Assembly: GCA_963514005.1 (NCBI GenBank)
Contig: OY740789.1
Location: 28,148,001-28,212,000, forward strand
Direction of reading: 5' to 3'
Source of the DNA: Raja brachyura
Taxonomy: Eukaryota
Length of the DNA: 64,000 bases
Shown here: one piece after another, positions 47,801 to 50,800 of the stretch
Numbering within the stretch: the first letter of the stretch is position 1
Layout: every line of letters begins with the position of its first letter
Program-made: the position numbers

Positions 47801-50800
47801 GACACCCTCTTGCGAGGTTCAGTGCCTCTGAGACTTTTTATGACCTTAATATAATGTAGTAGATGTGTGACCACACACAACCGAAGGTCCACGGGGTATG
47901 CCATAAACTCTAATTTGAGACAAGACGCTCCTGGTCTGCTCTGCTTGACTAAGTCATGCACATAAATGGTTATTTTACTGGCAGATGTAACCATTGTGTC
48001 CAGTCGCAGTTTATGCAATGACTGGACCCATTCCGCAAATCCTGTGCTTCGTGCACCTCGTGGAAGCAGCCATACCACCGAATTCGGAGTCAGTCCAGTA
48101 CTGACTCCATACGTTCCCCTCCTCAGAGAAGGAGACATTGTGCAGCCCTGAACTAGGCGCCGCTGCGGGCCCCTGAAGAGATCCGCTGGAGAATATCATG
48201 ATGGCGCATCCTTTCCATCAGGTGCTCCATCTGGGATAAACATCCGAAGATGCTATCCATAGTTGGAGGCGAGTCCTGCTGGCCTGACTCGTCCAAGTCC
48301 GCAGGGCTATCCAACTTTTCTCTTGGCTTTACCCCCTTTCTGGTGCTCCTAACAGGCACCAAGTCAGAAGCCGCTGACCACACCATCAGTGACTCGGGTG
48401 GCGAAATCGACGGCCGCCGGCTACCCGCACTCCCACGGTCCTCGGTAGCCGGTTTCCCCGCAACCCGTTTGGACTTCAACCTGGCCTTTTCCATAATGAT
48501 TGGAATCTCACTGTTCTGTAACCAAGATTACAGAACAAAAAACGACCTCAGAATAAGTGCAAAACCTACCTGTAGGGTCTTTTAAACTTACCGCTGGAGG
48601 AGCAATGCGCCTCCCAGCCAGTCATGCGCCATGCGTTAGATGTTAATGACAAGCATGCGGGCTGGCGGGCTCTTCATGTAGTCACTTACGTGACTCCGAA
48701 GTAAAATTTGCTGTTTGTACTTGCCAAATTATGATAATTTATGCCTCCATATTATATGCTTTTAAGTCCATCACAGTTTGGGAACACTGCAATGCATGTT
48801 TGCATGTTAACAATAACATTACAGCAGTGTGGCTACGCTTTCAAATTGCTTCATAAAAAGCAAAGTGTTGTGCGGTGGCAGCAGTGAGTGAAAGTATGAT
48901 GAGGAGGTTGTTCTGTCATTAATGGCTGGAAAAGATAAACATATATTCCATGGAGTTTGGATGAATGAGGAGTTATCTTATTGAAATATATAAGATCCAA
49001 GCAAGGCTTGACAAGGTAGATACCAAAATGTTTCCACTGGTAGTAGAGTCTTGAATGAAGAGACATAGTTATAGTGTGGAAACTCCACACAGACACACCC
49101 GTAGTCAGGATTGTACCTGGGTCGCTGGTGTTGTGAGGCAGTGGGCTCTACCTGCTGTGCTACTGTGTTGCCTGAACAAAAAGGTCTTCGATAGAATAGA
49201 GACTGATCTAATTTAACAGCTGAAACATAGCACAGGAACAGGCCCTTTGTCCCACAATGTCCATACTGAACATGATTCTGGATAAAACTAATGTCCCCTG
49301 CATGCATGTGATTCATACTGTATGCCTCCATTCTCTGCATATCCATGTATCCAGGAGAGACACAAAGTGCTGGAGTAATTCAGCGGGTCAGACAGGATCT
49401 CTGAAGAGAAAGGCTGGGTGACGTTTTGGGTCGGTCTGGCATTTCTCCAGCGATGCTGCCTGATCTGCTGAGTTACTCCAGCACTTTGTGTCCACCTTTG
49501 GTATAAACCAGTATCTTTATGCAGTTCCATGTTTTTATCCATGTGCCTATCTAAAATATTCTGAAATGTCATTATCGTATTTCCTATCACCACCACGCCT
49601 GGCAGCATGTTTGAAAGACTGCTCCTCTGACAATGCAGCTCTACTTCCACTCTGCACGAATGTCAGCCTGTGCTTTTGTGCTCAAGGCTGAAACTGGGAG
49701 ACAGGAACAAACACTTGTACCGTTAGTAAGTATATACCAAATTTCCATGTATGTTGTGGGAAGGAACTGCAGATGCTGGTTCTCGACCCGAAACGTCACC
49801 CATTCTTTCTATCCAGAGATTCTGCCTGTCCCGCTGAGTTACTCCAGTATTTTGTGTCCATCTATGTTGTCCAGGTTGATGAGATAAAGCCTGGTCAGGC
49901 AGTGCATGTGGAGAGAGAATATTCTAGATCATAAAGCAGCGAACGCAAATTTTCACTTTTATGCTGACGACACAGTGATATATTGCTCTGCGTCTACCCC
50001 AAATCAGGCTCTCTGTCAACTCCAAACTGCTTTTAACACTGTGCAATGTAACCTGTGTGATTTAAAACTTATTTTAAATGCTGACAAGACAAAGCTCATG
50101 CTGTTCACTAAAGCTAAATCAAAGCCCTCGGACCTCCTTTCTATCACCACTTTGCAGGGATCTGTGGTTGAATCTGTGTCTCAATATAAATATCTGGGAA
50201 TTATAATTGATGATTCTCTCTCTTTTAAATCTCATATCCAGCAACTTGTGAAAAAACTAAAGATAAAATTAGGTTTTTACTTTAGACACAAATCTTGTTT
50301 TTCTTTTGAAGCCAAAAAAAGACTTGTTGCTGCAACGTTTATGTCTGTGTTGGACTATGGTGATGTTTTATATATGAATGCACCTTCAAAATGCCTACAG
50401 TCTTTGGACACGGTCTAGGACCGTGATTTTTTAAATCTCAAAATGTTGTAACATTGCTATAGTGTGTGTAGGAAAAAAAGACACAGAGCACTGAGATTTG
50501 TTACTAATTTTAAAACCCTCACGCACCACTGCTCTTTGTATGCTCAAGTTGGATGGTTTGCCCTGTCCACCCGCAGACTCCATCATTGGCATATCCTTAT
50601 TTATAAGACTATCCTCGGTGTTTTTCCTTCATACCTGCAGAAGTATGTAATTTGAAAAAACACAGGAACTTACCAGCTCTGCTCTGAGGACTTGTTCTTA
50701 CTAACTGTACCTAATGTCCTTACTGAACTGGGGAAAAGGGCATTTAGTTATGCTGCTCCCTTCGCATGGAACCAGCTGCAGAATAAACTGAAACGTAAGG

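What the first reader, a model, noticed from the sequence alone, without database searches (positions are those of the whole stretch)
50409..50481. Templated insertion copying a 50-bp transposon/SINE junction from 43.5 kb away
Seen: 50424-50473 is identical to 6903-6952. That sequence spans the right TIR of the DNA transposon and the SINE sequence it inserted into, a junction expected to be locus-specific. It sits in a 63-nt insert interrupting the L2 reading ...LDTV(Y)HRALR and starts with a fold-back (cacggtc-tag-gaccgtg). Inference: a polymerase-theta-type break repair scar (snap-back, then template switch) recording a long-range contact in the germline. Alternative: the transposon targets this SINE site repeatedly, so the junction is multicopy.
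Basis: partly seen in the sequence, partly recalled or inferred. Interest (0 to 1): 0.65.

Follow-up and report, generated by a model that had tools for sequence, protein, structure and literature searches.

The report
Break-repair patch copied from 43 kb away
A dead retrotransposon fragment carries a 64-base patch, 50 bases of it copied exactly from a transposon/SINE junction 43.5 kb away, which looks like the scar of error-prone repair of a DNA break: a tidy example of a known kind of scar.

Summary
Bases 50424-50473 equal 6903-6952, 50 of 50, with identity stopping abruptly at both ends and no third copy in the window.

At 6.9 kb the 50-mer sits in its native context. It is the last 36 nt of a 1,055-bp element with terminal inverted repeats, plus 14 nt of the SINE that element split.

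At 50.4 kb it lies in 64 nt wedged between two stretches of a 5'-truncated LINE (L2-like) ORF2 remnant. In 38 of 39 relatives those stretches are one residue apart.

The patch has three parts: a 7-nt reverse-complement copy of the adjacent flank, which forms a fold-back; the 50-mer; and an 8-nt A-rich filler. Junctions share 1-4 nt.

Best reading: a multi-step templated insertion at a repaired double-strand break, of Pol theta/MMBIR type. The enzyme, the 3D contact and genome-wide uniqueness of the donor could not be tested, because no eukaryote genome collection was available.

One twist: the first 17 copied bases also match the LINE's own flank about 200 nt from the break (5+12 nt with a 7-nt gap). 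That hints donor choice was helped by homology.

This is a known kind of scar; interest is modest.

The parts
5708..5883 (+). SINE copy, left part (up to the element that splits it)
   Evidence: BLAST to other SINE copies in the window at 70-79% identity. 3 of the 6 alignments end at 5883; the others end at 5855 and 5764. In the wide query the ends fall at 5883-5887. Alignments.
5877..5883 (+). Left copy of the 7-nt direct duplication (target-site duplication) flanking the element
   Evidence: The same 7-mer sits at 5877-5883 and 6939-6945. SINE alignments of the two halves overlap by 7 nt on other copies.
5884..6938 (+). 1,055-bp non-coding element with terminal inverted repeats, inserted in the SINE (hAT-like by duplication length; superfamily not proven)
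   Evidence: Terminal inverted repeats 5884-5897 / 6925-6938 match at 12 of 14 (I14) and sit exactly at the SINE break. Chance is 4e-6 analytically and 25 of 3,000,000 random pairs empirically. No ORF longer than 95 aa. No other copy in the window.
6939..7035 (+). SINE copy, right part (starts with the right copy of the 7-nt duplication, 6939-6945)
   Evidence: BLAST to other SINE copies. In the control test its first 24 nt after the shared 7-mer score z=10.8 against SINE post-site sequence.
6903..6952 (+). Donor tract: the last 36 nt of the element (including its right inverted repeat) plus 14 nt of SINE flank
   Evidence: Context is continuous on both sides.
49918..50877 (+). 5'-truncated LINE (L2-like, APE-type non-LTR) ORF2 remnant, one part. 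It corresponds to residues 764-1062 of a 1,064-aa relative.
   Evidence: 53 relatives, best 79% identity. (tblastn outer bounds). (RVT_1, E=1.7e-8). Breaks counted: 1 truncation, 1 nested insert, 2 in-frame stops, 0 frameshifts seen.
50418..50481 (+). The 64 nt that lie between the two LINE flanks (the patch)
   Evidence: The upstream and downstream pieces were searched separately. In 38 of 39 relatives matched by both, they lie 1 residue apart.
50409..50425 (+). Fold-back. The left arm 50409-50415 is LINE flank. The right arm 50419-50425 is its reverse complement inside the patch. The loop is 3 nt.
50424..50473 (+). Copy of 6903-6952. Its first 2 nt are shared with the fold-back's right arm.
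50474..50481 (+). 8-nt A-rich filler between the copy and the right LINE flank
   Evidence: The 8-mer occurs 11 times in the window, itself included.
50211..50234 (+). Stretch of the LINE's own left flank identical to the donor's first 17 nt (5 + 12 nt, with a 7-nt gap in the LINE)
   Evidence: 0 of 3,876 mock donors reach this score with their first 17 nt (0 of 546 AT-matched). With a start-anchored score, 108 of 20,648 reach it.
55443..55455 (-). Candidate template for the filler: a 13-nt identity covering the last base of the copy, the filler and the first 4 nt of the right LINE flank
   Evidence: Rough chance about 0.04 (my arithmetic from the 10 other occurrences). Not significant on its own.
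50314..50323 (+). Alternative candidate template for the filler: a 10-nt identity within the LINE flank, about 160 nt from the break

Best explanation
A double-strand break inside an already dead, 5'-truncated LINE fragment was mended by microhomology-primed, synthesis-dependent end joining with several template switches. This left a 64-nt patch and cost the LINE at most 1 nt.

Inferred order of events:
1. One 3' end folded back on its own flank and copied 7 nt in reverse complement.
2. The end then paired through 2 nt with a tract 43.5 kb away on the same strand of the same molecule and copied up to 50 nt. That tract spans the right end of a terminal-inverted-repeat transposon and the SINE flank beside it.
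3. A short A-rich stretch was added, either templated (candidates at 55443-55455 on the minus strand, or 50314-50323) or untemplated.
4. The end annealed to the other break end through 1-4 nt.

The anatomy, the polarity (6.9 kb is donor, 50.4 kb is recipient) and the shared junction bases are shown by the sequence. The order of steps, which end was extended, and the polymerase are inferred. Pol theta-type TMEJ is the most likely; MMBIR-type synthesis is the close alternative. The event is in the assembled genome, so it was presumably germline or early embryonic.
For: - Exact 50/50 identity with abrupt ends and only two copies in the window.
- Donor context is native. Terminal inverted repeats match at 12 of 14, exactly at the SINE break, with a 7-nt flanking duplication. 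The SINE sequence resumes in register.
- Recipient flanks abut in 38 of 39 relatives, so the break lost almost nothing and there is no target duplication.
- The fold-back arm is the reverse complement of the adjacent flank.
- Shared bases at the junctions are 2 nt, 1 nt and 1-4 nt.
- No differences in 50 nt gives a pairwise divergence of at most 5.8% at the 95% level, whereas SINE copies are about 70-79% alike. The copy is therefore younger than the repeats around it.
- The pattern of iterated priming, extension and dissociation, with snap-back as a minor mode and occasional templates more than 1 kb away, is described for Pol theta (PMC5068794, passages; PMC4032859, passages).
- Germline multi-template insertions that return to the original site are described for humans (PMC8421209, passages).
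Against: - The main template is 43.5 kb away. In C. elegans about 85% of Pol theta templates are primed within 10 bp of the break.
- A perfect 50-nt tract is long for an error-prone polymerase. That paper reports tracts of more than 20 nt and that only about 30% of inserts are perfect.
- The first base of the patch is not explained by the fold-back, and a 3-nt loop needs an unexplained priming step.
- The chance of a fold-back at this spot is about 0.02, not vanishing.
- The filler's candidate templates are near chance level.
- Genome-wide copy number of the junction and read support were not testable here.
- The donor was only findable because it lies inside the 64-kb window. Its closeness is therefore partly an ascertainment effect.
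Confidence: 0.72

Rival explanations
1. The patch came from RNA or cDNA, as in a class 2 templated-sequence insertion. A transcript running across 6903-6952 was reverse-transcribed and the cDNA patched the break, so no DNA-DNA contact is recorded.
For: Class 2 events have an intact donor, no target duplication, no poly(A) signal, microhomology and untemplated bases. They are thought to go through RNA (PMC5110952, passages). All of those sequence features are met here. An A-rich run follows the copy.
Against: The fold-back copy of the adjacent flank is a DNA-templated, polymerase-at-the-end signature. The A run is 7 nt and impure, and the 50-mer holds no AATAAA or ATTAAA (reading). Reported experimental inserts were 73-414 bp, longer than this one. 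Nothing shows that the donor is transcribed.
Confidence: 0.1
2. The true donor is another, identical copy of the junction elsewhere in the genome. This would happen if the junction is multicopy, for instance because the element hits this SINE site repeatedly or because of a segmental duplication. The 43.5-kb neighbour would then be a bystander.
For: The 14 SINE bases of the 50-mer are well conserved; another SINE copy shares 13 of them exactly. Genome-wide counting could not be done.
Against: None of 7 other SINE copies in the window has an insert at the site. The element has no other copy in 64 kb. If the donor were elsewhere, an identical second copy lying within the same 64 kb would be a large coincidence (inference). 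A 50-nt fragment inside a LINE would still need templated repair.
Confidence: 0.07
3. A free double-stranded fragment released from the 6.9-kb locus was captured at the break by classical end joining.
For: Capture of DNA fragments at breaks is known (cited in PMC5110952). It needs no long-range synapsis.
Against: The donor locus is intact. The fold-back and the shared junction bases point to synthesis from a 3' end. Nothing marks 6903 or 6952 as a natural fragment end.
Confidence: 0.05
4. Assembly or polishing artefact: the 64 nt are not in the animal's DNA.
For: Not testable here. Short exact duplicates can arise from gap filling.
Against: The sequence returns to the same LINE, in the same frame, with at most 1 nt lost. 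It also carries 14 nt found nowhere else as such, the fold-back arm and the filler. A mis-join would not produce this. The window holds no N or gap.
Confidence: 0.04
5. Remnant or excision footprint of a second copy of the same transposon that once sat in the LINE.
For: The 36 nt are the element's own right end. Transposases of the hAT kind leave hairpin-derived palindromes on flanks (recalled knowledge).
Against: The 14 nt after the inverted repeat are the SINE flank of the other locus, not LINE sequence. No duplicated LINE target is present, since the flanks lie 1 residue apart in relatives. The palindrome is imperfect at its centre.
Confidence: 0.02

Closest known systems
[quoted passage not shown]
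   Same: An insert built by repeated priming, extension and dissociation from a 3' end. One to a few shared bases at each switch. A snap-back (reverse-complement) copy of the flank. Minimal loss of flanking DNA. Such scars are seen in natural genomes (PMC5068794; PMC4032859).
   Different: The main template is 43.5 kb away and the tract is 50 nt and perfect. Typical templates lie within about 10 bp and tracts are shorter and error-prone. Dependence on the enzyme is untestable here.
MMBIR-type templated insertions (MMB-TI), including complex multi-template germline events
   Same: Microhomology-flanked inserts, an inverted copy of a nearby template, several templates in one event, return to the original site, and fixation as germline variants (PMC8421209).
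   Different: That survey only searched for templates within 100 bp, and its authors name distant templates as uncharted. No copy-number change or larger rearrangement is seen here.
Class 2 templated-sequence insertion polymorphisms (TSIP/TSI)
   Same: A patch from a distant region at a repaired break, with an intact donor, no target duplication, no poly(A) signal, microhomology and extra bases (PMC5110952).
   Different: Those are ascribed to RNA intermediates, come from any chromosome, and were 73-414 bp in experiments. Here the donor is in cis, the tract is 50 nt, and it is joined to a DNA fold-back.
Multi-invasion / template switching during homologous recombination (recalled: Piazza, Wright and Heyer 2017; Anand et al. 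2014; not read here)
   Same: An internal stretch of a resected tail pairing with an ectopic donor would account for the 17-nt gapped identity between the LINE flank and the start of the copied tract.
   Different: The homology here is only 12 contiguous nt. No rearrangement resulted. This is a lead from memory, not a test.

Membership tests
TMEJ templated insertion | Insert sequence matches a template elsewhere; donor left intact | tested here: met
   50/50 identity with the donor in native context. The fold-back arm matches the adjacent flank in reverse complement.
TMEJ templated insertion | Template in the immediate flank of the break (most cases within about 10 bp) | tested here: inconclusive
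   Met for the 7-nt fold-back arm. Not met for the 50-nt tract, which is 43,521 nt away. Distant templates are mentioned as a minority (legend of S5 Fig in PMC5068794; the figure itself was not seen).
TMEJ templated insertion | At least 1 nt of shared bases at each junction | tested here: met
   2 nt at the fold-back/copy junction, 1 nt at the copy/filler junction, and 1 or 4 nt at the filler/flank junction depending on the template.
TMEJ templated insertion | Dependence on polymerase theta | not testable with these tools
   Sequence alone cannot name the polymerase.
MMBIR-type templated insertion (MMB-TI) | Inverted copy of a template within 100 bp, flanked by microhomology; several templates possible; return to the original site | tested here: met
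   The fold-back arm lies 3 nt from its template. There are three patch parts. The flanks abut in 38 of 39 relatives.
Class 2 TSIP | No target-site duplication, no poly(A) tract or signal; microdeletion, microhomology, extra bases | tested here: met
   No duplicated LINE sequence. The A run is 7 nt and no AATAAA/ATTAAA occurs in the copy (reading). At most 1 nt was lost.
Class 2 TSIP | RNA intermediate / transcribed donor | not testable with these tools
   No expression data available.
Class 1 TSIP (LINE-mediated retroposition) | Target duplication of at least 5 bp, poly(A) of 10-40 nt, and a signal 10-30 nt upstream | tested here: not met
   None of the three is present.
Terminal-inverted-repeat DNA transposon, hAT-like (the donor element) | Terminal inverted repeats at both ends | tested here: met
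   12 of 14 at 5884-5897 / 6925-6938, exactly at the SINE break. Chance is about 4e-6 to 8e-6.
Terminal-inverted-repeat DNA transposon, hAT-like (the donor element) | 8-bp target-site duplication (the length is recalled knowledge) | tested here: inconclusive
   A 7-nt exact duplication. The 8-mers immediately flanking the element differ in register. It reads as 8 nt with one mismatch only if the right end of the element is shifted by 1 nt.
Terminal-inverted-repeat DNA transposon, hAT-like (the donor element) | Transposase gene or other family copies | tested here: not met
   No ORF longer than 95 aa. No other copy in the window. It would be a non-autonomous copy, so the superfamily remains unproven.
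Transposon excision footprint at the LINE site | Both copies of the target duplication retained around a short palindromic footprint | tested here: not met
   The flanks lie 1 residue apart in 38 of 39 relatives, so there is no duplicated target.

The most novel reading that the evidence does not exclude
Donor choice was guided by homology, not only by proximity. The resected LINE tail carries, about 183-206 nt from the break, a stretch (50211-50234) identical to the very first 17 nt of the copied tract (5+12 nt with a 7-nt gap).

On this reading the internal stretch paired with the donor and opened a small bubble. The 3' end then primed by 2 nt at the edge of that bubble, and copying therefore starts exactly where the homology starts.

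If this is general, isolated templated patches in genomes would be fossils of abortive ectopic homology searches (multi-invasion-like). Their donors would be predictable from the flank sequence.
Probability: 0.15. Interest if true: 0.55.

Novelty: new member of a known kind. Interest (0 to 1): 0.3.

Why it matters
The scar is a clean natural specimen of a multi-template repair insertion, and both template and product can be read in one 64-kb stretch. Polarity, junction bases and minimal loss can all be stated without guesswork.

Its value is as an example and as a search image. Surveys of templated insertions have mostly looked within about 100 bp of the break (PMC8421209), so patches with donors tens of kb away in cis are under-charted.

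A genome-wide census of isolated exact duplicates with abrupt ends would show two things. One is whether donors are enriched in cis. The other is whether, as here, the donor's start matches the recipient's flank.

By itself this single case changes nothing about known repair pathways. It disrupts only a dead repeat.

Tried and rejected
1. Locus A as two separate SINE copies rather than one SINE split by a transposon. The 24 nt left of the right-hand SINE part are weakly SINE-like (87 of 3,000 random 24-mers score as well). The 24 nt right of the left-hand part are not (1,919 of 3,000). Positive controls gave 4 and 0 of 3,000. Together with the 12-of-14 inverted repeats at the borders, the transposon reading is kept and the weak likeness is left as a caveat.

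2. Excision footprint, or remnant of a second transposon copy, at the LINE site. Rejected because there is no duplicated target and because the 14 nt after the inverted repeat belong to the other locus's SINE.

3. LINE-mediated retroposition of a short transcript (class 1). No target duplication, no signal, no real poly(A).

4. Another template for the fold-back arm. A 9-nt match at 48442-48434 (minus strand) is at chance level; one search lists dozens of 9-mers.

5. Other copies of this LINE family in the window, to see an uninterrupted site. None found. tblastn gave only a 25%-identical RT at 40449-40793, so protein relatives were used instead.

6. Rfam scan of the window: 0 matches at gathering score.

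7. A scan of genome contigs with a 27-nt stretch of the element's end gave 0 matches. That collection holds only bacteria and archaea, so the result says nothing about copy number in the host genome.

8. The suffix-anchored arm of the script returned the same figure as the prefix arm. It is probably mis-specified, and only the prefix figure is used.

9. Taxon. The named relatives of the RT are ray-finned fishes at 53-63% identity. The best hits (69-79%) are unnamed. The host was not determined, and nothing suggested a human contig.
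Full report
OBSERVATION

Bases 50424-50473 and 6903-6952 are identical, 50 of 50. The match cannot be extended by a single base on either side. At k=15 and k=20 no third site exists in the window on either strand. The window is 64,000 nt, has no N and is 42% G+C.

BLAST of 50380-50520 against the window returns only itself and 6903-6952. Other long exact dispersed matches exist: 64 nt at 9178/33397, and 52 and 47 nt at 38.8/53.0 kb. Each of these sits inside a multi-copy family whose similarity runs on for 97-164 nt, with many more copies at 74-93%. 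The 50-mer is the only one with abrupt ends and two copies.

THE 6.9-KB LOCUS IS THE SOURCE

A SINE copy runs from about 5708 to 5883 and resumes at 6939. Its two halves align to the same other copies with a 7-nt overlap, for example 7523-7363 and 7369-7272.

Between the halves lie 1,055 nt (5884-6938). The first and last 14 nt of this stretch are inverted repeats matching at 12 of 14 (pair I14). Such a pair at two given positions has a chance of 4e-6 analytically, and occurred in 25 of 3,000,000 random pairs. The same 7-mer flanks the element on both sides.

The element has no ORF above 95 aa and no other copy in the window. It reads as a non-autonomous transposon with terminal inverted repeats. 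The 7-8-nt duplication suggests the hAT kind (recalled knowledge), but the superfamily is not proven.

I also tested a rival reading, in which two separate SINE copies adjoin unrelated DNA. The 24 nt left of 6939 are weakly SINE-like (87 of 3,000 random 24-mers do as well). The 24 nt right of 5883 are not (1,919 of 3,000). Positive controls gave 4 and 0 of 3,000. I keep the transposon reading. On either reading the 50-mer is a junction of non-SINE and SINE sequence in its native, continuous context.

The 50-mer is therefore 36 nt of the element's right end plus 14 nt of SINE. None of 7 other SINE copies spanning this site carries an insert there.

THE 50.4-KB LOCUS IS THE RECIPIENT

It lies in a 5'-truncated remnant of a LINE ORF2 at 49918-50877. 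This corresponds to residues 764-1062 of a 1,064-aa relative and 794-1092 of a 1,094-aa one (outer bounds only). The part before the patch matches RVT_1 at E=1.7e-8.

Relatives were found with that upstream part alone: 53 proteins from 374 candidates. The best are 69-79% identical and unnamed. The named ones are ray-finned fishes at 53-63%. The longer relatives carry endonuclease domains PF03372/PF14529.

The parts before and after the patch were never joined. Each was compared separately with the 53 relatives, and 39 were matched by both. In 38 of those 39 the two parts lie exactly one residue apart. In the remaining one, P0026, a partial protein with partial alignments, the figure was -10. 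So 64 nt (50418-50481) sit between flanks that abut in the family, giving a net gain of 63 nt and a loss of at most 1 nt.

Breaks in the remnant, counted: one 5' truncation, one nested insert, two in-frame stops and no frameshift seen.

ANATOMY OF THE PATCH

(a) A 7-nt reverse-complement copy of the flank just before it forms a fold-back with a 3-nt loop (50409-50425). As single-stranded DNA it folds at -7.6 kcal/mol, with z = -3.5 and 0 of 200 shuffles as good. The window has 212 such perfect stems with loops of 0-6 nt (12 with a 3-nt loop), so one abutting the copy has a chance of about 0.02.

(b) The 50-nt copy follows. Its first two bases double as the last two of the fold-back arm.

(c) An 8-nt A-rich filler comes last (50474-50481). 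Together with its neighbouring bases it matches 13 nt at 55443-55455 on the minus strand. That match includes 4 nt of the right LINE flank. Alternatively it matches 10 nt at 50314-50323 within the LINE. The 8-mer occurs 11 times in the window including itself, so neither candidate is compelling.

MECHANISM

The simplest account is repair of a double-strand break by synthesis from a 3' end that switched template several times: first its own flank (snap-back), then the distant tract, then a short third template or untemplated addition, then annealing to the other end. Each switch used 1-4 shared bases.

This is the pattern described for polymerase theta: iterated priming, extension and dissociation, snap-back as a minor mode, and little loss of sequence (PMC5068794, passages read). 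Such scars occur in natural isolates (PMC4032859, passages). The same pattern is described for MMBIR-type templated insertions, which occur as complex multi-template germline variants in humans (PMC8421209, passages).

Against a plain Pol theta reading, about 85% of templates in that work are primed within 10 bp of the break. Tracts beyond 20 nt are noted as exceptional, and only about 30% of inserts are perfect.

An RNA/cDNA patch (class 2 templated-sequence insertion; PMC5110952, passages) fits the absence of a target duplication and of a poly(A) signal. It does not explain the fold-back. Papers on Pol theta and end joining in fish and mouse embryos were seen only as search listings.

IS 6903-6952 REALLY THE DONOR?

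A genome-wide count was not possible.

Within the window nothing suggests a multicopy junction. If the donor lay elsewhere, an identical second copy within the same 64 kb would be a large coincidence (inference). Conversely, the closeness of donor and recipient cannot by itself be read as proof of contact, because only donors inside the window could be noticed.

No differences in 50 nt bounds the pairwise divergence at 5.8% (95% level). SINE copies here are 70-79% alike. The event is therefore younger than the surrounding repeats and necessarily younger than the transposon insertion.

AN UNEXPLAINED EXTRA

The donor's first 17 nt are identical to 50211-50234 of the LINE flank, as 5 nt plus 12 nt with a 7-nt gap on the LINE side.
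- Only 469 of 62,251 window 50-mers (0.75%) share any 12-mer with the 300 nt on either side of the break.
- 0 of 3,876 mock donors (0 of 546 AT-matched) reach the observed score with their first 17 nt.
- With a start-anchored chain score, 108 of 20,648 do.
- With an unanchored local score over the whole 50-mer, 65 of 3,876 do.

The statistic was chosen after seeing the match, so I treat it as suggestive only. It would fit a homology-assisted choice of donor. In that case either an internal stretch of the resected tail paired with the donor and opened it where copying then began, or a nascent end acquired this homology first.

COMPARISON AND VERDICT

This works like, and by its sequence features belongs with, templated insertions of alternative end joining/MMBIR. 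Membership of the enzyme-defined family (Pol theta dependence) cannot be tested. It is a new member of a known kind.

No spliced gene model was involved, and no contig was taken for human. The retroelement ORFs of the window, which include the virus-like stretch named by the operators, were only described.

Noticed in passing
window 50211-50234 versus 6903-6919: The LINE's own flank, about 200 nt from the break, is identical to the first 17 nt of the copied tract (5+12 nt, with a 7-nt gap). 0 of 3,876 mock donors do as well. This may mean donor choice was helped by homology.
   Followed up: partly
window 5708-7523: The donor SINE and a second SINE copy in the opposite orientation (7523-7272) form a large imperfect inverted repeat around the donor. 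Arms are, for example, 5783-5869/7378-7464 at 79% and 6939-6972/7336-7369 at 88%. The donor tract ends inside one arm. Whether this makes the site prone to being used as a template is unknown.
   Followed up: no
window 26102-30264 (+): Three successive long ORFs (403, 528 and 316 aa). The second has a reverse-transcriptase match, and the third has weak matches (below Pfam's curated cut-offs) to tyrosine-recombinase ('phage integrase') domains. This looks like a DIRS-like retroelement and is possibly the virus-like stretch the operators mention. Described only.
   Followed up: no
window 116-3973 (+): Three long ORFs (542, 455 and 192 aa). The first has a full-length RVT_1 match at E=3.6e-39, and the other two have no Pfam match. 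This is another retroelement at the window's edge.
   Followed up: no
window 47557-48138 (-): A 193-aa ORF just upstream of the LINE remnant. Its sequence looked recombinase-like to the eye, but it has no Pfam match at E<=0.01.
   Followed up: partly
window 17646-20793 (+): An RT remnant with an ALKBH8_N-like tail (18201-19181), followed by an ORF with a GIY-YIG nuclease match just below the cut-off (20065-20793). These are further retroelement debris. A 10-nt tandem repeat lies at 19735-19828.
   Followed up: no
window 32077-32383: A perfect 17-nt tandem repeat array of about 18 units.
   Followed up: no
window 4417-4718: A 79-nt inverted repeat, 95% complementary, with arms 144 nt apart (I1). 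It has a MITE-like or hairpin-forming structure.
   Followed up: no
window 9093-9152: A 60-nt perfect palindrome made of a (TA)n run with complementary ends. It sits next to a multi-copy repeat, 9148-9244.
   Followed up: no
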